From: an uncultured Alphaproteobacteria bacterium
GTDB taxonomy: Bacteria; Pseudomonadota; Alphaproteobacteria; Methylaequorales; Methylaequoraceae
Assembly (NCBI GenBank): GCA_902595755.1
Contig: CACJRF010000001.1
Coordinates: 1,447-65,446 of the forward strand
Direction of reading: 5' to 3'
Length of the DNA: 64,000 nucleotides
The position numbers and the translations under genes were made by a program. Shown piece after piece: positions 50,389-55,401 of the stretch; the first letter of the stretch is position 1; each line of letters begins with the position of its first letter. Under the pieces are notes generated by a model. It had not been told where the DNA came from. It worked only from the letters and a program-made list of their open reading frames with translations, and did no database searches.

Positions 50389-51162
50389 ATGATTAATAAA
50401 ATAATTGCTGTTGGCTCTGGAAAAGGCGGTGTAGGAAAATCTACTGTATCCGTCAATCTCTCAATAGTTTTAGCAAAATATTTTAAACTGAAAATAGGGC
50501 TCCTTGATGCTGATATCTACGGACCTTCTATACCAAACCTGTTGGGTATAAAGGATAAACCATCAACTGAAAATAAAAAAATTATTCCTTACGATAAATA
50601 TTCTATAAAGGCTATTTCAATTGGAAATATGATTCCAGATGGTTCTGCAGTAATTTGGAGGGGAGCAATGGTTTCGAGTGCTATAAGACAGCTGTATAAT
50701 GATGTGGTTTGGGGTGACTTAGACTACTTAATTATTGATCTACCCCCAGGAACTGGGGATATTCAACTTTCCTTATCTCAGTATCTTAATATTTCAGGAG
50801 CTGTAATTGTGTCAACTCCCCAAGAAATATCCCTTATCGATGTAAGAAAAGCTATTTCGATGTTTGACAAAGTAAAAATTCCAATTCTAGGTTTAATTCA
50901 AAATATGAGCTACCTCAAAATAAACGGAAATGAAGAGTATATCTTTGGAAAAGATGGAGTTAAAAATGAGGCGGTAAGTCTAAAAAAACCTTTTCTTGGA
51001 GATATTCCTCTAATAAGCGAAATAGCATCTTCAAGTGATAAAGGTGCTCCTAGTGTTTTAAATGGGAAATCACAAGCTACTGATTTTTATAAAAGCATCG
51101 CTAAAAATCTTTTAGACAATAAGGATAAAATGATTGATAAGAAGGTTAAAATTGAAAATTAA
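50389..51162 (+). CDS. mrp: Mrp/ApbC Fe-S cluster carrier ATPase
   Basis: Deviant Walker A GKGGVGKST and the CxxC-less short alphaproteobacterial form. DLPPGTGD motif. Confidence 0.9.
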   Translation: MINKIIAVGSGKGGVGKSTVSVNLSIVLAKYFKLKIGLLDADIYGPSIPNLLGIKDKPSTENKKIIPYDKYSIKAISIGNMIPDGSAVIWRGAMVSSAIRQLYNDVVWGDLDYLIIDLPPGTGDIQLSLSQYLNISGAVIVSTPQEISLIDVRKAISMFDKVKIPILGLIQNMSYLKINGNEEYIFGKDGVKNEAVSLKKPFLGDIPLISEIASSSDKGAPSVLNGKSQATDFYKSIAKNLLDNKDKMIDKKVKIEN

Positions 51163-52082
51163 AAAGAAAATATTTTTTTTAATTCATCAATTTCTCTTTT
51201 AGAAATTTTAGTTTCTTTATTAGATTTACCATGAAGTTTGTTTTTTATGAACTCTATTGCTTCTGAAGAAAGGACTAAGGAATCAAGTCTATTTTTTAGA
51301 AACGCTTCATAAGTTAGCGGCACCCATTTTTTCATTATATTTATCATTATCTCTGCATAAACTCTTATTTCATACTGAGCGTGTTCATCAAACCTCAAAG
51401 CTAAAAAATGCATAAAATTATGAAGATCAATTTTCCAATACCATTGAGTGTAGCTATTTAAGGGTAATACAATTCTAGATAGTTCTCTGGTAAGTCCTTG
51501 CCTTTTGTGATTTACTTCATCATCGTCTTGATTTAATAAAAAATTATATTTTTCAAATGAATCTTTAGAATTTTCTCTTAAAACCTTCATGTACATCTTT
51601 TTTTCATTCTCATCCAAATCTCCTGACCTTCCCTGATTGTTGGTTTTTGACTGAGGTTTAAGTTCTTTAGGATTTGGTATATAAAATTCATTTTCAAGAA
51701 TTGAGTATCTTGCTGAATATTCATTTACATTGGCTGTTCTATGTCTTATCCATTGCCTAGCCACAAAGATTGGTAATTTTACGTGAAATTTGATTTCATT
51801 CATTTCAAAGGGCGTGGAATGTCTATGACTAAGCAAGTAATTAATTAGGCTTTTATCTTGGTTTAACTGCTTTGTTCCTTTACCATAGGATACTCTTGCA
51901 GCCTGAACTATAGAGGAATCATTGCCCATATAGTCAATTACTCTTACAAAGCCATGATCAAGAGCTTTAAATGATTTATATAAAACTTTCTCAAGTTTTG
52001 GTGCAACTACTCTTTTAGTTAAAAACTTATTTTTACTGACGCTATCAATTTCTTTTTGTATTTTTTGATTTTTTTTCATCAA
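51159..52082 (-). CDS. thyX: FAD-dependent thymidylate synthase
   Basis: ThyX signature RHRTANVNEYSARY. Confidence 0.9.
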   Translation of the reverse strand: MMKKNQKIQKEIDSVSKNKFLTKRVVAPKLEKVLYKSFKALDHGFVRVIDYMGNDSSIVQAARVSYGKGTKQLNQDKSLINYLLSHRHSTPFEMNEIKFHVKLPIFVARQWIRHRTANVNEYSARYSILENEFYIPNPKELKPQSKTNNQGRSGDLDENEKKMYMKVLRENSKDSFEKYNFLLNQDDDEVNHKRQGLTRELSRIVLPLNSYTQWYWKIDLHNFMHFLALRFDEHAQYEIRVYAEIMINIMKKWVPLTYEAFLKNRLDSLVLSSEAIEFIKNKLHGKSNKETKISKREIDELKKIFSF

Positions 52083-52336
52083 TCTATAATAGTAAAAGCA
52101 TAAATCATTACAATCAATTTAAGGTTTTATTTTTTTAAAATTAGGTTTAAGATATAAATGCTGTTTTCAGCTATAGCAATAAACGTTTGATTTGAACTGA
52201 GACGGACCCGGGGGCGGTACCCGGCACCTCCACCAAAATATATTTTAATGGGGGTGAAACAGGATCGACGTGCATGTAGACGGTCAAAAACTTTGCTCGG
52301 AATGGTACCAACGTTATCGGACTAAACTTTATAAAT

Positions 52337-52369
52337 GCCAACGATAATGAAATGGCACTCGCTGCTTAA
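52337..52369 (+). other. tmRNA tag reading frame ANDNEMALAA-stop
   Basis: GCC AAC GAT AAT GAA ATG GCA CTC GCT GCT TAA. The stop is embedded in the hairpin GCTTAA-tt-TTAAGC (52364-52377). The C-terminal LAA is typical of ClpXP degrons. Confidence 0.85.
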
Positions 52370-52420
52370 TTTTAAGCAAGCGCGGTTATGAGATTACCGG
52401 GCAACAGAAGTCTCATCGGC

Positions 52421-52453
52421 AAGGGCGGGCAATTGTTCGCCCTTGTTTGTTTT
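52421..52453 (+). terminator. intrinsic terminator of ssrA (copy 0 of the repeated block)
   Basis: AAGGGCGGGC-AATT-GTTCGCCCTT stem-loop (two G-U pairs) followed by GTTTGTTTT. Confidence 0.8.
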
Positions 52454-52623
52454 AGGGAGACTCACAAAGGGTTTCAGAGGATTCGCTCAACAGAAAATAA
52501 GAGAAAATAAAGCAAAACAAAACGATTTAAGTGTAATGCACTTTTGTCTGTTCTTATTTTCTTAAAACATTAGTTCAAGCATTAAAATTTACGTTATTTT
52601 GCTTGAACCAATTATAATTTATT

Positions 52624-52785
52624 TTATTCTTTTTTTTCTTCTGTTGTCTCTTCTTCTTTTTCTTCAGAAGTATCTTCTGTTTTTTCTTCTACAACTTCTT
52701 TTTTTTCTCCGTGTCCGTCCGCTCTTATGGATTCAGAAGAAAATAAAATTGCTAAGGAGAAGAATAAAAGGTAGAAATTTTTCAT
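52624..52785 (-). CDS. 53-aa secreted acidic E/K-rich protein (not in ORF track)
   Basis: GGAGA SD 5 nt before the ATG. Hand translation MKNFYLLFFSLAILFSSESIRADGHGEKKEVVEEKTEDTSEEKEEETTEEKKE (signal peptide plus charged tail). Confidence 0.5.
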   Translation of the reverse strand: MKNFYLLFFSLAILFSSESIRADGHGEKKEVVEEKTEDTSEEKEEETTEEKKE

Positions 52786-52953
52786 GTGTATCTCCAAAAA
52801 GGTTAAAATATAATACTAATAAATCTTAAATATTTATTGAAATTTATATTCTTTATATTTGTTATAATTTCAAATAATAATGGTGATGCTATAATATTTA
52901 GAACAGACATTTTTTCGTTTATAATTTTACAAATTATAAAATTAAGAGGAATA

Positions 52954-52997
52954 GGCGCCTAAAACCTGTCCAAAGGGAAGGAAGAATTTTAGACGCC
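52954..52997. other. GC-rich imperfect hairpin inside E1
   Basis: GGCGCCTAAAA ... TTTTAGACGCC: 11-bp arms with one mismatch and a 22-nt loop. Locally GC-rich in an AT-rich spacer. Confidence 0.35.
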
Positions 52998-53062
52998 AAC
53001 ATAATACATAGTAATTAAGATATCTCTGTAGAAATTTTTTATGTTTATACCTATTATTAATT

Positions 53063-53175
53063 CTGATTATAGATTTATTTAAACTAATCCTATTAACCTT
53101 GATTGAAAAATTATTAGTAATCATTGTAATTTAGTCTGTATTAATTTTTTTTTCTTTAGAAAATAGAAATTATAA
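53063..53175. repeat. X repeat, copy in E1 (homolog at 54571..54680)
   Basis: About 110 nt alignable by eye with 54571..54680, e.g. TTGAAAAATTATTA(G/A)TAATCATTG and TTTAGAAAAT(A/G)GAAAT. Confidence 0.7.
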
Positions 53176-53181
53176 AATTAA

Positions 53182-53460
53182 TCCGTGCAGAAGTCGTGCA
53201 GAAAATGTCCTCAATTTGCAGACACTTTTGCAGACACTTTTTGAGGAATACCCAGAAACAGAGGGTCTTAGACCATAAACCGAGACACAGAAGTCTCATC
53301 GGCAAGAGCGGGCGATTGTTCGCCCTTGTTTGTTTTAGGGAGACTCACAAAGGGTTTCAGAGGATTCACTCTTCAACAAATAAGGGAAATCACTGTGCAA
53401 AAAGTGTTATGCACTTGCAATGCACTTTTATTTGTTCATCATTTATTTTTCTGGATTGTT
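53182..53460 (+). repeat. junction repeat J1: element right end + tmRNA 3' core copy 1 + element left end
   Basis: TCCGTGCAGAAGTCGTGCAGAAAATG...TTTGCAGACACTTTTGCAGACAC, then ACCGAGACACAGAAGTCTCATCGGCAAG and the terminator, then the same downstream sequence as after ssrA. Confidence 0.85.
53304..53336 (+). terminator. terminator copy 1
   Basis: AAGAGCGGGC-GATT-GTTCGCCCTT plus GTTTGTTTT. One extra mismatch relative to copy 0. Confidence 0.6.
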
Positions 53461-53535
53461 AGAATGGTTGAAAGAATTGTAAAATTTTTTTTAAGTTGCT
53501 TGATTAATGGCGTAAAAATTAATTAAAATTTATTT

Positions 53536-54075
53536 ATGAAAAGACTATACCTCAAATTTTTTAAAATATATTTATCAGTTTCAATCATACTTTTAGGATG
53601 TGTAAAAGTAAATTCTTCTGAGGGTATAAATGATGTCAAAAATTTATTAGAAGGAAGGTATGAACTAGTTTATTGGACAGAAAATAACATCCAATATTAT
53701 TACCCAGAAGTAGCAGGAATACTTATCTTAAATAATAATAATGCTTTAATTACCTTGGATAAAAATATGGATACAAACAAGTCTGCCGAATTAATAGGAT
53801 GGGGAAAATATGAAATTAACAGTGAATCATTTCATATCGGATGGCATGATTGGAAGTTATTATTGATTGAAAATAATATTAAAACTGTAAAAAAAAAATC
53901 TCCTTGGGAAGGTATGAGAGAATATAGTGTTTTTTTTAAAGATAATAAATTAGTTTTAACTTCAATAACTGGCAAACAATCTTGGAACATAAATAAAAAT
54001 TCTATAGTTTATATGGATAGAGAGTGGGGTGAAAATCAAGACGAAGTTGTAAGATATTGGAGAAGAGTAAATTAA
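53536..54075 (+). CDS. lipoprotein of unknown function (E2 cargo)
   Basis: Signal peptide with lipobox ILLGC, 179 aa, no motif recognised. Confidence 0.6.
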   Translation: MKRLYLKFFKIYLSVSIILLGCVKVNSSEGINDVKNLLEGRYELVYWTENNIQYYYPEVAGILILNNNNALITLDKNMDTNKSAELIGWGKYEINSESFHIGWHDWKLLLIENNIKTVKKKSPWEGMREYSVFFKDNKLVLTSITGKQSWNINKNSIVYMDREWGENQDEVVRYWRRVN

Positions 54076-54148
54076 AAAAAATTCTTTCTATTTGCATTTA
54101 AATTAAAAAATTTTTTAATGTACTTATTAAATACTTTAGTGTTAAGAA

Positions 54149-54307
54149 ATGAAAAAATTCTTTTTAATTGTAATGACTATTTTTTTATCTAAAAATGTAA
54201 ATTCATTAGAATTGTTATGTAGTGGAGAAAAACCAAGATTACAAAATCAAAAACAAATGGTAAATGACCACATTAAATTGTTCCCAGATTACTATGGTAA
54301 AAAGTAG
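54149..54307 (+). CDS. 52-aa putative secreted protein (not in ORF track)
   Basis: Hand translation MKKFFLIVMTIFLSKNVNSLELLCSGEKPRLQNQKQMVNDHIKLFPDYYGKK. The stop abuts the first base of repeat J2. Confidence 0.35.
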   Translation: MKKFFLIVMTIFLSKNVNSLELLCSGEKPRLQNQKQMVNDHIKLFPDYYGKK

Positions 54308-54500
54308 TCCGTGCAGAAGTCGTGCAGAAAATGTCCTCAATTTGCATACACTTTTGCATACACTTTTTAAGAAAGTCCCAGAAACAAAGGGTCTTAAGAC
54401 ATTTACCGAGACACAGAAGTCTCATCGGCAAAGGCGGGCAATTGTTCGCCCTTGTTTGTTTTAGAAATACTCACAAAGGGTTTCAGAGTATTTACTCTTC
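54308..54500 (+). repeat. junction repeat J2: right end + core copy 2 + left end
   Basis: The first ~60 nt are identical to J1, except that both TGCAGA units of the second pair read TGCATA. Confidence 0.85.
54430..54462 (+). terminator. terminator copy 2
   Basis: AAAGGCGGGC-AATT-GTTCGCCCTT plus GTTTGTTTT. Confidence 0.6.
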
Positions 54501-54570
54501 AGTAATAATATGAAGAAATATGGCGAGTAAAAAGATTATCCCAACTTGTTATTTCAATCATAAAATTAGT

Positions 54571-54680
54571 TGATAATGATATAGATTTATCTAAACTTAT
54601 CCAAATGACCTTTATTGAAAAATTATTAATAATCATTGCGGTTTGGTCTGTAGTGATTTTTTTGTTTAGAAAATGGAAAT
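54571..54680. repeat. X repeat, copy in E3
   Basis: Homolog of 53063..53175 (see that entry). Confidence 0.7.
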
Positions 54681-54702
54681 AATTAGATTGTATGTAAAGT
54701 GA

Positions 54703-54827
54703 GTACCGGCAAAAGTCGTGCAGAAATTGTCGTCATTTTGAATACACTTTACTTACACTTTATTCATGCACCGAAATATGTAAGTATCATCTGCAAAGGC
54801 GGGCAATCGTTTGCCCTTGTTTGTTTT
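54703..54827 (+). repeat. junction repeat J3: degenerate right end + core copy 3 (attR-like, no left-end block follows)
   Basis: AAAAGTCGTGCAGAAATTG...TTTGAATACACTTTACTTACAC...ACCGAAATATGTAAGTATCATCTGCAAAGGCGGGCAATCGTTTGCCCTTGTTTGTTTT. Sequence to the right is unrelated to the other copies. Confidence 0.7.
54795..54827 (+). terminator. terminator copy 3
   Basis: AAAGGCGGGC-AATC-GTTTGCCCTT plus GTTTGTTTT. Confidence 0.55.
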
Positions 54828-54888
54828 ATAGGATTAATTGTAGGATTTATATATTCTAATTTTGAAAGATAAATCTTTATTTTATATC

Positions 54889-55401
54889 TTACTCAATTAT
54901 AATTTTCCCGCGCATACCCATTTCTGCGTGTGACTTATTAATTTTATTATCAATAACTTTACAATTTAAATCATCAAAAACTCCGGTTTTAATCGGAACA
55001 AACCACCACTCCAAAGTATTATTCGGGAAAATTTCTACCTCAAGAATATCGCCTTTAATCTCAGCTATTTTTTCTTTATCCTTATTGACTTGAATCTTTC
55101 TTGTAAAAATTGAATCTGCAAACTCTTTTGATGTGAAATAATGTTTACTATCGCTCAGATTTTTTAATTTTAATTTATAAAGTTTTCCTGTCTCAAACTT
55201 TAAAAGTGATGGCTCATAATAATGAAACTCACCAGAGCTACCCTTTAATAAAACTTCGATACTTATTGGCTTTTGTCTTGTGAGGTCTCCTTTTCCATTA
55301 GATTTACTCGTAGTAAACAAAGTTAAAATTATCAAGGAAAGTAAAAAATAAAAGTTATATAAAAGTGTTCTCATTATTAGGTTCACAAAATTAAAAAACA
55401 T
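54889..55401 (-). CDS. secreted cupredoxin-like protein
   Basis: Signal peptide. C-terminal LNC...SHAEMGMRGKIIIE resembles the Cys/His/Met copper-ligand loop ending GM-x-G-x-I, with an unusually long Cys-His spacer. Alternative start 55374. Confidence 0.6.
   Translation of the reverse strand: MFFNFVNLIMRTLLYNFYFLLSLIILTLFTTSKSNGKGDLTRQKPISIEVLLKGSSGEFHYYEPSLLKFETGKLYKLKLKNLSDSKHYFTSKEFADSIFTRKIQVNKDKEKIAEIKGDILEVEIFPNNTLEWWFVPIKTGVFDDLNCKVIDNKINKSHAEMGMRGKIIIE

What the first reader, a model, noticed from the sequence alone, without database searches (positions are those of the whole stretch)
52395..54827. Four direct copies of the tmRNA gene 3' end delimit three tandem, integrase-less mini-elements
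Seen in sequence:
- The last ~59 nt of the tmRNA gene run from ACCG through the terminator hairpin and the GTTTGTTTTA tract (copy 0 at 52396-52454). This block recurs three more times in direct orientation. The terminators are at 53304-53336, 54430-54462 and 54795-54827, spaced 883, 1126 and 365 bp apart.
- By hand alignment, an 84-nt block starting CAGAAGTCTC differs from copy 0 at 3 positions in copy 1 and 7 positions in copy 2. Copy 3 is more diverged.
- Copies 0, 1 and 2 share a further ~100-170 nt on their right side (a conserved hairpin, then an AAGTG/CACTT hairpin).
- Copies 1, 2 and 3 share ~105 nt on their left side (TGCAGA repeats), which takes the place of the tmRNA body.
- Only copy 0 has real tmRNA on its left. 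Only copy 3 has unrelated sequence on its right.

This is the attL/att/att/attR pattern expected for three related elements integrated in tandem at ssrA, each supplying a replacement gene end. None of them encodes an integrase, an excisionase or any ORF above 180 aa. The cargo is small secreted proteins or lipoproteins, and the third element is a 365-bp cargo-less miniature.

Established knowledge: ssrA 3' ends are classic tyrosine-integrase targets, and att-flanked integrase-less elements (CIME-type) exist elsewhere.

Inference: these are cassette-like non-autonomous elements mobilised in trans, for example by a phage integrase. Because this ssrA is circularly permuted, the target is the coding-piece terminator rather than the tRNA-like CCA end. 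Alternative explanation: the copies are paralogous small-RNA genes that share the tmRNA 3' end.
Basis: partly seen in the sequence, partly recalled or inferred. Interest (0 to 1): 0.8.

Follow-up and report, generated by a model that had tools for sequence, protein, structure and literature searches.

The report
Decayed integrative elements stacked at ssrA
Downstream of the tmRNA gene of this SAR11-type genome lie three small, integrase-less leftovers of a roughly 7–9 kb integrating element that inserts into the end of that gene; this explains one variable gene island in the ocean's most abundant bacteria.

Summary
There are four direct copies of the last 59–71 nt of the two-piece tmRNA gene (52396-52454, 53279-53337, 54405-54463, 54770-54828). 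They delimit units of 883, 1126 and 365 bp.

In 26 SAR11 genomes and 31 metagenome contigs the same site carries 1 to at least 5 copies with varying cargo: restriction-modification systems, DoxX, PhoD and small secreted proteins.

The junctions look like attP sites. They have an inverted repeat GAGAC-ACAGAA-GTCTC at the left edge of the identity block, two tandem motifs on the left arm and up to three on the right arm. The motif variant matches within a cassette but not across a junction.

Just left of copy 2 (54239-54307) lie the last 22 codons and stop of a divergent tyrosine integrase. Intact 397-aa copies sit in that position in about 7–9 kb elements integrated at ssrA in other SAR11 cells.

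So the window holds deletion derivatives of serially integrated elements. This is a known kind of island (tRNA/tmRNA-targeting elements, CIME-like remnants). Mobilisation in trans is plausible but not shown. Unit 3 is an old fossil shared with the closest relative.

The parts
52121..52418 (+). Two-piece (circularly permuted) alphaproteobacterial tmRNA gene, ssrA. It is the integration target.
   Evidence: Rfam RF01849, 204 bits, and RF04321, 139 bits. ARAGORN did not call it.
52396..52454 (+). Copy 0 (attL-type). It holds the last ~23 nt of the tmRNA coding piece plus the intrinsic terminator. The left half-site is GGGCA (tmRNA version), followed by ACAGAA (52404-52409) and GTCTC (52410-52414).
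   Evidence: The GGGCA versus GAGAC difference between copy 0 and all internal copies is seen.
52455..52570 (+). Left end (P' arm) of unit 1. It begins with the conserved GGGAGACTCACAAAGGGTTTCAGAGG and holds one arm-type motif, GTGTAATGCAC (52531-52541).
52624..52797 (-). Cargo ORF of unit 1, 57 aa. It has a signal-peptide-like N-terminus and an acidic tail. Unit 1 cargo (52571-53067) recurs in at least 9 distant SAR11 genomes.
   Evidence: Cargo identity is 84-92.5% nt against thyX 72-75%.
53068..53278 (+). Right end (P arm) of unit 1. It comprises a distal segment (53068-53179), tandem repeats CGTGCAGAAGT/CGTGCAGAAAA (53184-53205), tandem arm-type motifs TTGCAGACAC x2 (53216-53225 and 53228-53237), and the CCC..GGG hairpin with GGTCTTAGACC.
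53279..53337 (+). Copy 1 (attP-like junction core). It holds GAGAC (53282-53286), ACAGAA (53287-53292), GTCTC (53293-53297) and the terminator.
53338..53460 (+). Left end (P' arm) of unit 2, with two arm-type motifs: GTGTTATGCAC (53404-53414) and TTGCAATGCAC (53415-53425).
53536..54075 (+). Cargo of unit 2: a 179-aa predicted lipoprotein (lipobox LLGC) with no Pfam family.
   Evidence: The same gene is 99.5% identical but inverted in metagenome contig L049.
54239..54307 (+). Fossil 3' end of a tyrosine integrase gene: the last 22 codons (...QNQKQMVNDHIKLFPDYYGKK) plus the stop. It is embedded in the spurious 52-aa ORF 54149-54307.
   Evidence: tblastn with the intact integrase P0013 matches residues 376-397 at 82% identity, E 6.7e-6. 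Full-length proteins end ...NDHIKLFPDYY(G/D)KK. Comparable fossils of 17-82 codons occur in 11 other cassettes.
54308..54404 (+). Right end (P arm) of unit 2. It holds CGTGCAGAAGT/CGTGCAGAAAA (54310-54331) and TTGCATACAC x2 (54342-54351 and 54354-54363). It starts right after the integrase stop codon, as in intact elements.
   Evidence: The layout is identical downstream of intact int genes in L067, L070, L072, L073 and L069.
54405..54463 (+). Copy 2 (attP-like junction core). It holds GAGAC (54408-54412), ACAGAA (54413-54418), GTCTC (54419-54423) and the terminator.
54464..54769 (+). Unit 3, with no ORF. It is a decayed P' stub (54464-54515) plus a decayed P arm (54580-54769; degenerate motifs; a deletion removes the hairpin region).
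   Evidence: It is conserved in the closest relative L025, directly after its ssrA.
54770..54828 (+). Copy 3 (attR-type, distal end of the array). Its left half-site is degenerate (CCGAAATATGTAAGTATC). The terminator is intact. Unrelated chromosomal flank follows.
   Evidence: The flank 54829 onward is shared with L025.

Best explanation
The array is what remains after repeated site-specific integration of one family of SAR11 integrative elements into the 3' end of the two-piece tmRNA gene.

**Proposed mechanism**
- The parent elements are about 7-9 kb long.
- They carry a divergent, roughly 397-aa tyrosine integrase whose stop codon abuts the attachment site.
- Their attP consists of a left arm with two tandem arm-type motifs, a core with the inverted repeat GAGAC-ACAGAA-GTCTC, an ~80-nt stretch identical to the ssrA end (last ~15 nt of the tmRNA, terminator, ~27 nt beyond), and a right arm with three tandem copies of the same motif.
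- Integration recombines at or near ACAGAA. The element supplies a new gene end and terminator, and the old end is pushed downstream.
- Each new arrival pushes earlier ones further from ssrA.
- Internal deletions then removed the integrase and most other genes. Both ends and some cargo were left.

**What the window contains**
- Three such derivatives: unit 1 (small secreted peptide), unit 2 (lipoprotein plus the last 22 codons of int) and unit 3 (ends only, old and degenerate).

**Shown**
- The repeats, the variable arrays and the int fossil.
- Intact int in the same position in full elements at ssrA, and the tyrosine-recombinase fold.
- Linkage of arm motifs within cassettes.
- The patchy, high-identity distribution of unit 1 that points to horizontal transfer.

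**Inferred**
- The exact crossover position.
- That the tandem motifs are arm-type integrase sites.
- That units 1 and 2 can still be excised and moved by a related integrase supplied in trans (my estimate about 0.3).
For: **Repeats and target**
- The repeats are confirmed and the tmRNA is mapped.

**Arrays in other genomes**
- In 26 SAR11 genome loci the same core recurs 1-5 times after ssrA, with spacings of 260-4300 bp.
- 31 metagenome contigs carry the internal-copy version.
- Cargo differs between genomes: type II and type ISP R-M systems, DoxX, PhoD and methyltransferases.
- The closest relative L025 (thyX 96% nt, tmRNA 98.9%) lacks units 1 and 2 but has unit 3 and the same flank.

**Horizontal spread**
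- Unit 1 is 84-92.5% identical to copies in genomes whose thyX is 72-75% and tmRNA 82-86% identical.
- Its order relative to the DoxX cassette differs between genomes.

**Junction anatomy**
- Internal copies read GAGAC-ACAGAA-GTCTC apart from a few decayed copies, and none carries the tmRNA version GGGCA of the left half-site. Copy 0 always has GGGCA.
- The motif variant at the left end of a cassette matches the one at its right end: longest common substring mean 8.95 against 7.12 for random pairs, p = 0.0015.
- The two arms flanking one junction do not match (7.16, p = 0.33).
- This is what integration of circles with matched arms predicts.

**Integrase**
- An integrase remnant sits directly left of the left arm in the window and in 11 other cassettes.
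- There is an intact ORF in SAG locus L024.
- Full-length homologues of 396-408 aa are 70-89% identical and end in the fossil's sequence.
- Family tests: PF00589 in 7 of 12 members; PDB XerC-like match at E 0.004; AF2 model pLDDT 76, whose 66 matches at E <= 0.001 start with 50 tyrosine recombinase chains.
- Full-length lambda Int aligns over 386-391 columns.

**Full elements**
- L058 has a full element bounded by an ssrA copy and an internal copy.
- L069 has at least 2 full elements in tandem.
- L067 has int followed by an attP with GCAATACAC x2 on the left arm and x3 on the right arm.
Against: - No excised circle, empty attB or integration event has been observed. All evidence is comparative.
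- The window's own ends are partly decayed. The right-arm motif count is 1, 2 and 0 instead of 3. The two ends of units 1 and 2 carry different motif variants. The core of unit 3 is degenerate. So present mobility is doubtful.
- The same cargo (unit 1) is linked to different motif variants in different genomes. The L025/window difference does not map to the core. Homologous recombination therefore clearly reshuffles the array as well.
- The integrase lacks two canonical residues (Y for the first H, N for H/W). It scores below Pfam's cut-off in P0013.
- No integrase of this family is in the 64-kb window apart from the fossil.
Confidence: 0.8

Rival explanations
1. The units are dead fossils. 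They arose by integrase-mediated insertion long ago, but they are no longer substrates for any recombinase. All present-day gain, loss and shuffling of units happens by RecA-type homologous recombination between the ~200-300 bp repeats, including after uptake of foreign SAR11 DNA.
For: - The arms in the window are decayed.
- Unit 3 is conserved as a fossil in L025.
- Cargo and motif variants are associated in a mosaic way.
- The junction of the L025/window difference lies in the right arm, not at the core.
- No integrase sits in most arrays.
- A gene-sized segment is inverted within another cassette.
Against: - The left half-site GAGAC is kept in internal copies apart from a few decayed ones and never replaced by the tmRNA version GGGCA.
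- Arm motifs stay linked within cassettes.
- Many integrase-less cassettes keep complete 2+3 motif sets (listing).
- Intact integrases of this family occur in marine metagenomes from several projects.
Confidence: 0.35
2. Copies 1-3 are paralogous small-RNA genes, or functional terminator/regulatory modules, that share the tmRNA 3' end. On this view they are not attachment sites.
For: - Terminator hairpins are maintained by compensatory changes across 32 sequence variants.
- A CCC..GGG hairpin upstream shows some covariation by eye.
Against: - No promoter-like site lies in the left arms on the + strand.
- No Rfam family matches copies 1-3 even at E <= 1.
- The left arm starts at the stop codon of an integrase gene in intact elements.
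- Motif variants are linked across the cargo, not across the supposed RNA gene.
- Copy number and position vary freely between genomes.
Confidence: 0.04
3. The cassettes are moved by a host-encoded recombinase, in a Xer/dif-type (IMEX) or integron-like system. On this view the integrase elements are unrelated passengers.
For: Cassettes without a recombinase stacked at one site resemble an integron array in outline.
Against: - The core bears no resemblance to a dif site (28 bp; comparison from my own knowledge of the dif consensus).
- The sites are ~300 bp with arms, unlike attC.
- No recombinase gene flanks the array in any of 26 genomes.
- The integrase fossil and the intact integrases sit exactly at the arm.
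Confidence: 0.03

Closest known systems
Genomic islands and prophages integrated by tyrosine integrases into tRNA/tmRNA genes, including tandem arrays (Williams 2002; Islander database, PMC4383910)
   Same: - An intact target gene lies at one end.
- Displaced 3' fragments lie in direct orientation downstream.
- The element restores the gene end.
- The tmRNA gene is the most enriched target, and tandem arrays are known.
   Different: - The target is the coding-piece end of a permuted two-piece tmRNA gene plus its terminator, not the tRNA-like CCA end.
- Islander requires an integrase in each island, so these integrase-less units would be filtered out.
- Arrays of three or more are rare there (4 of 3919 islands).
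Additive flexible genomic islands of streamlined plankton: Prochlorococcus islands and tycheposons (bioRxiv 10.1101/2020.12.28.424599), the Methylophilaceae tRNA-Lys island (PMC10872708), and SAR11 islands with partial tRNA repeats (PMC11796062)
   Same: - Serial integration next to a tRNA/tmRNA gene pushes older elements distally.
- Partial target-gene repeats are scattered through the island, with fragmented integrases.
- Cargo includes defence and nutrient genes.
- Some tycheposons carry a small serine recombinase.
   Different: - The SAR11 paper mentions one tmRNA-linked island in a single sentence and reports no mobile element there.
- In this case the att anatomy, the integrase family and the parent element are identified.
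- Homology of this integrase to tycheposon recombinases was not tested.
CIMEs (cis-mobilisable elements): att-flanked, integrase-less derivatives of integrative elements that are mobilised after accretion with a helper (own knowledge: Streptococcus thermophilus ICESt1/ICESt3 work)
   Same: - The units are flanked by attL/attR-type sites of a known integrase-bearing family.
- They lack recombination genes.
- They lie in tandem with each other, and in other genomes with full elements (L058, L069).
   Different: - Mobilisation has not been shown here.
- The parents are not conjugative elements, as far as their unannotatable genes allow one to say.
Lambda-type heterobivalent integrases and their attP (arm-type sites P1, P2, P'1-P'3)
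   Same: - The layout has two tandem motifs on one arm and three on the other, around a core with inverted half-sites.
- The integrase model has an N-terminal beta-sheet-plus-helix domain and aligns with full-length lambda Int.
   Different: - Binding has not been tested.
- The motif differs between elements (GCAATACAC, GTGATACAC, GCAACGCAC, GCACACAC and others).
- The identity block with attB is ~80 nt, not 15.
Integron gene cassettes
   Same: Small units of mostly one or two genes, without a recombinase, are stacked at one site and differ between strains.
   Different: - There is no adjacent intI or attI.
- The sites are ~300-bp double-stranded attP-like junctions rather than folded attC hairpins.
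- The units derive from deletion of autonomous elements.

Membership tests
tDNA-targeting genomic island (Islander-type) | An intact tRNA/tmRNA gene at one end and a displaced 3' fragment of it, in the same orientation, at the other end | tested here: met
   tmRNA at 52121-52418. Three displaced 3' fragments lie in direct orientation.
tDNA-targeting genomic island (Islander-type) | A tyrosine integrase gene inside each island | tested here: not met
   In the window only a 22-codon fossil remains (54239-54304). The feature is met in relatives L024, L058, L067 and L069.
tDNA-targeting genomic island (Islander-type) | The identity block between attP and attB runs from the crossover to the 3' end of the gene, so that the gene is restored | tested here: met
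   Identity starts at ACAGAAG and runs through the tmRNA end and terminator in all copies. Copy 0 keeps a full tmRNA.
CIME-like non-autonomous element | Flanked by att sites of an integrase-bearing element family while lacking the recombination genes | tested here: met
   The same P and P' arms flank full elements (L058, L067, L069) and the window units.
CIME-like non-autonomous element | Excision or transfer when a helper integrase is present | not testable with these tools
   This needs read-level circle detection or an experiment. Indirect support only: unit 1 is 84-92.5% identical in genomes with thyX at 72-75%.
Tyrosine recombinase (parent integrase P0013 family) | Two-domain core-binding plus catalytic fold | tested here: met
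   The AF2 model has pLDDT 76. Foldseek gives 66 PDB matches at E <= 0.001. The 50 best listed are all tyrosine recombinases or integrases: Cre, Tn1549 Int, lambda Int, IntI, XerH, XerA and an S. aureus integrase.
Tyrosine recombinase (parent integrase P0013 family) | Catalytic signature R-K-H-R-H/W-Y | tested here: inconclusive
   R226, K263, R341 and Y373 are invariant. The first H is Y338 and the H/W position is N363 (nearly invariant). The residue assignment comes from the alignment to XerC-like 4a8e.
Tyrosine recombinase (parent integrase P0013 family) | Pfam PF00589 at the gathering threshold | tested here: inconclusive
   PF00589 matches 7 of 12 members (best E 3.8e-6). P0013 itself matches only Phage_int_M, at 18 bits against a cut-off of 27.
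Integron | An intI gene with attI next to the array, and attC hairpin sites on the cassettes | tested here: not met
   No recombinase flanks the array in 26 genomes. The junctions are ~300-bp attP-like sites.
Tycheposon | The hallmark deep-branching tyrosine recombinase and replication module of the Prochlorococcus family | not tested
   No tycheposon sequences were on hand. Shared traits only: tmRNA/tRNA targeting and a small serine recombinase. The other genes of the SAR11 element match no Pfam or PHROG family.
Rfam-described small RNA | A match of copies 1-3 to a curated RNA family | tested here: not met
   Only copy 0 matches (the tmRNA 3' end), at E <= 1 over 52380-54950.

The most novel reading that the evidence does not exclude
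The integrase-less units may be a working cassette system rather than debris. On this reading each cassette carries a 2+3 set of arm-type motifs whose variant acts as an address read by the hypervariable N-terminal domain of a matching integrase. Rare ~9-kb helper elements would then excise, transfer and re-insert specific subsets of defence and surface-protein cassettes at ssrA across SAR11 species. That would be an integron-like gene-shuffling system in a clade thought to be nearly free of mobile elements.

The first hint is weak. Three integrases with different N-domain strands (residues ~25-40) sit next to three different motif variants.
Probability: 0.2. Interest if true: 0.75.

Novelty: new member of a known kind. 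Interest (0 to 1): 0.5.

Why it matters
SAR11 genomes are textbook examples of streamlining and are usually described as lacking mobile elements, yet their populations carry large flexible gene pools. This locus gives a concrete mechanism for one such island.

- An ssrA-targeting integrase family and its decayed derivatives stack restriction-modification systems and small envelope proteins downstream of the tmRNA gene.
- At least one cassette is far more similar between distantly related lineages than the surrounding genome is.
- The attP anatomy, the integrase sequence and the fossil signature described here can be used to annotate this island in SAR11 genomes.
- The locus also explains why assemblies tend to break at this ssrA: several genome and metagenome contigs end at or near a repeat copy.
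- The integrase family is absent from GenBank phages and IMG/VR, which makes it worth characterising.

Tried and rejected
- **Phage origin.** blastn of the junction against 50,697 GenBank phages gave no match. Four exact or degenerate core and arm patterns against IMG/VR gave 0 hits. tblastn of the integrase against phages and a profile scan of IMG/VR found no relative. A known phage source is therefore not supported.
- **Regex screen for the tyrosine-recombinase box II motif.** It was run over 532 ORF segments and gave no hit. The screen was uninformative, because this family has Y-S-L-R-H and G-N-T-S instead of the canonical motifs.
- **Pfam summary scan of 60 cargo ORFs.** It listed no PF00589 among the 25 of 31 families shown. 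This is also weak evidence, given how poorly the family scores. The tblastn with P0013 is the valid test.
- **L045 603-aa ORF next to a core.** It looked integrase-like by eye. It is a B12-binding radical SAM protein with only a sub-threshold DUF6538 hit.
- **L024 element genes against PHROGs.** Only the serine recombinase matched. No capsid, terminase or replication function could be assigned, so 'phage satellite' stays a guess.
- **Serine recombinase as the integrase of the family.** It is present in full elements. However, it is a resolvase/invertase type, and the gene that abuts the site is the tyrosine integrase, so I did not adopt this.
- **Empty site.** None was found. Every genome with sequence after ssrA has at least a right-arm stub.

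Full report
**1.

The window is SAR11-like. thyX (51159-52082, minus strand) is followed by an alphaproteobacterial two-piece tmRNA gene at 52121-52418 (Rfam RF01849, 204 bits). ARAGORN missed this gene.

The repeat finder returns four direct copies of a 71-nt block ending at 52454, 53337, 54463 and 54828, at 80-89% identity. They are spaced 883, 1126 and 365 bp apart. The 31-nt terminator core occurs four times within 3 mismatches, against none in 100 shuffles. All four copies are terminator-like. The largest ORF between them is 179 aa.

Two details need correcting:
- Copy 2 shares only about 52 nt to its right with copies 0 and 1.
- The left arms of copies 1 and 3 share a further ~110 nt (53068-53179 ~ 54580-54689).

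**2. The same site in other SAR11 genomes**

A scan of GTDB genomes with thyX gave 26 loci. blastn and an nhmmer profile of the core show the following:
- ssrA is followed by one to five or more copies of the same core, at spacings of about 260-4300 bp.
- Cargo differs between genomes.
- Several genome contigs (L001, L002, L007, L010, L019) end right at ssrA.

An exact-pattern scan of metagenomes with the internal-copy version of the core gave 31 more contigs.

Cargo (Pfam) includes:
- several type II restriction-modification pairs, a type ISP enzyme and a related helicase-nuclease;
- DoxX, a PhoD-like phosphatase, methyltransferases and an acyltransferase;
- small secreted proteins.

The closest relative, L025 (thyX 96% nt, tmRNA 98.9%), has ssrA followed directly by the equivalent of unit 3 and the same downstream genes. 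It lacks units 1 and 2.

Unit 1 (52571-53067) is 84-92.5% identical to copies in genomes whose thyX is only 72-75% and tmRNA 82-86% identical. It sits at different array positions, and its order relative to the DoxX cassette is reversed in L017. This distribution is not vertical.

**3. Anatomy of the junctions**

An alignment of 31 non-ssrA copies shows one conserved module. From left to right it contains:
- tandem CGTGCAGAAGT / CGTGCAGAAAA;
- two tandem copies of a ~10-nt motif, with a 12-13 nt period, whose sequence differs between cassettes (TTGCAGACAC, TTGCATACAC, TTCAATACAC, TGCACACAC, GTGATACAC, GCAACGCAC and others);
- a short CCC..GGG hairpin and a GGTCTTAGACC palindrome;
- CCGAGAC-ACAGAA-GTCTC;
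- the tmRNA end and terminator;
- GGGAGACTCACAAAGGGTTTCAGAGG;
- after ~40 nt, one to three more tandem copies of a motif of the same type.

Copy 0 always reads GGGCA where the internal copies read GAGAC, apart from a few decayed copies, and no internal copy carries GGGCA. Identity with the tmRNA gene therefore starts at ACAGAAG, right at an inverted repeat with a 6-nt spacer. This is the usual geometry of a tyrosine-recombinase core (inference).

The terminator stem is kept by compensatory changes in many of its 32 variants among 95 copies.

**4. The cassette, not the junction, is the inherited unit**

For 39 cassettes with both ends, the motif variant at the left end matches the one at the right end of the same cassette. 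The longest common substring averages 8.95 against 7.12 for random pairs (p = 0.0015). The two arms flanking one core are no more alike than random (7.16; p = 0.33; cassette versus junction p = 0.016).

This is what integration of a circle with matched arms into a core produces. It argues against the junction being a gene of its own. It does not by itself separate site-specific from homologous crossing-over in the core.

**5. The integrase**

In a subset of cassettes, a conserved peptide ...VRNQKQMVNDHIKLFPDYYGKK* ends directly at the left arm. In the window it occupies 54239-54307, inside the apparent 52-aa ORF. Upstream DNA in L058, L009 and L013 reads, across frameshifts, as ...GLERPMYSLRHSALNQRLESGV...KGNTSPEMIKNYYRDV..., which is a tyrosine-recombinase C-terminus.

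- **Intact copies.** SAG locus L024 has an uninterrupted ORF of 365 codons for this protein that runs off the contig end. A protein search returned full-length homologues of 396-408 aa, 70-89% identical over the whole query. All end in ...NDHIKLFPDYY(G/D)KK or a close variant.
- **Sequence-level family tests.** The family is divergent. PF00589 matches 7 of 12 members (best E 3.8e-6). The best solved relative by sequence is a XerC-like protein (E 0.004).
- **Catalytic residues.** R226, K263, R341 and Y373 are invariant. Tyr replaces the first His, and Asn replaces the His/Trp.
- **Fold.** An AlphaFold2 model (pLDDT 76) has an N-terminal four-strand sheet plus helix, then helical and catalytic domains. 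The 50 best listed of its 66 Foldseek matches at E <= 0.001 are all tyrosine recombinases, including full-length lambda Int over 386-391 columns.
- **Distribution in the fetched sequences.** tblastn of P0013 against everything fetched finds near-complete genes only in L024, L058, L059 and L067-L069. Fragments of 17-82 codons occur in the window and 11 other cassettes.

**6. The parent elements**

- **L058.** About 7.06 kb lie between the ssrA core and an internal core that has a standard left arm. This stretch carries the integrase, which is frameshifted in this long-read assembly, and a small serine recombinase.
- **L024.** The related element is at least 8.7 kb long.
- **L069.** Cores lie at 2394, 11253, 20479 and 20660, so at least two full elements are in tandem.
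- **L067 and L068.** The int stop codon is followed at once by a complete attP-like site with GCAATACAC x2 on the left arm and x3 on the right arm. The left-end genes of an element follow.
- **Gene content.** The remaining ~15 small genes match nothing in Pfam or PHROGs.
- **Absence from virus collections.** Neither the att site nor the integrase occurs in GenBank phages or IMG/VR.

**7. Reading of the window**

- **Unit 1 (52455-53337).** It keeps both arms, but the right-arm motif set is reduced to one copy, and the two ends carry different variants.
- **Unit 2 (53338-54463).** It keeps two right-arm motifs, a lipoprotein gene, the last 22 codons of int and a full left arm.
- **Unit 3 (54464-54828).** It has only stubs and a degenerate core, and it is shared with L025.

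The array is therefore a stack of deletion derivatives, oldest at the distal end. Whether units 1 and 2 can still be moved by an integrase supplied in trans is open; I put this at about 0.3. Homologous recombination clearly also reshuffles the array. Cargo and motif variants are associated in a mosaic way, and a 576-nt gene segment from unit 2 appears 99.5% identical but inverted in another cassette.

**8. Rivals**

- **sRNA genes.** There is no Rfam match for copies 1-3 at E <= 1. No promoter-like site lies in the left arms. The linkage test and the integrase position also argue against it.
- **Host recombinase or integron-like system.** There is no adjacent recombinase, and the sites are unlike dif or attC.
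- **Dead fossils.** This reading concerns present mobility only, and it stays a serious possibility.

**9. Comparison with what is known**

Integration of tyrosine-integrase elements into tRNA and tmRNA genes, with tandem arrays and displaced fragments, is classic (Islander, PMC4383910). Related cases are described for:
- Prochlorococcus, where serial integration builds islands containing partial tRNA repeats and integrase fragments (bioRxiv 10.1101/2020.12.28.424599);
- Methylophilaceae (PMC10872708);
- SAR11 tRNA-linked islands, described briefly.

A single sentence in the SAR11 paper notes one tmRNA-linked island with no mobile element found (PMC11796062). I found no description of this att anatomy, of the integrase family or of the parent element in the searchable literature. 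Overlap with the Pelagibacter-associated virion-encapsidated elements of PMC9618062 could not be checked.

I therefore file this as a new member of a known kind. It has moderate interest because of the organism and because the evidence chain from fossil to intact integrase is complete.

Noticed in passing
window 53535-54110; L049 2006-2581: The lipoprotein gene of unit 2 is 99.5% identical over 576 nt to a Tara metagenome contig. There it lies inverted relative to the att core and in different flanks. This suggests gene-sized modules are shuffled or inverted inside cassettes.
   Followed up: partly
L067 7894-8484; L024 2454-3152; L058 2107-2535; L059-L066: Full elements carry a small serine recombinase (resolvase/invertase type, 196 aa, PF00239). 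Where the contig extends far enough it is followed by conserved ORFs of 166 and about 79 aa; L062 differs. The 90%-identity cluster has 63 members on 34 contigs. Its role (resolution of tandem arrays? inversion?) is unknown.
   Followed up: partly
L067, L070, L072/L073 (int N-termini and the DNA after the int stop): Three integrases that differ in N-domain residues ~25-40 (KYWYVRFYVGRQFSK, RYYNILFYVGLHHSK, KYWNVSFYVGRDLRL) sit next to three different arm motifs (GCAATACAC, GTGATACAC, GCAACGCAC). This may be co-varying specificity, but n = 3 only.
   Followed up: partly
L074 2045 onward: Integrase homologue P0024 (70% identical, 401 aa) is followed by unrelated sequence with no left arm. It may use a different attachment site.
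   Followed up: no
L001, L002, L007, L010, L019; many of L027-L057: Genome-bin and metagenome contigs often end at or within a few hundred bases of a core copy. The repeat array appears to break short-read assemblies at this locus.
   Followed up: no
window 52121-52418: ARAGORN did not report the two-piece tmRNA that Rfam finds at 204 bits.
   Followed up: no
window 54631-54658 and the homologous 53119-53146: The distal part of the left arm of units 1 and 3 contains its own terminator-like hairpin followed by a T run. This distal arm type differs from the type that carries the integrase fossil.
   Followed up: no
L045 1692-3500 (minus strand): A 603-aa B12-binding radical SAM protein directly after an att core has an N-terminal stretch with a sub-threshold DUF6538 match (E 0.0011). 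That domain is otherwise seen at the N-terminus of some integrases.
   Followed up: no
L013, L008, L009, L012 terminal copies: In the clade whose array is followed by a 93-aa membrane-protein gene, the last copy still carries ~27 nt (GGGAGACTCACAAAGGGTTTCAGAGG) after the terminator. In that clade the attB identity block therefore extends ~80 nt. In the window lineage the last copy is cut right after TTTTA.
   Followed up: partly
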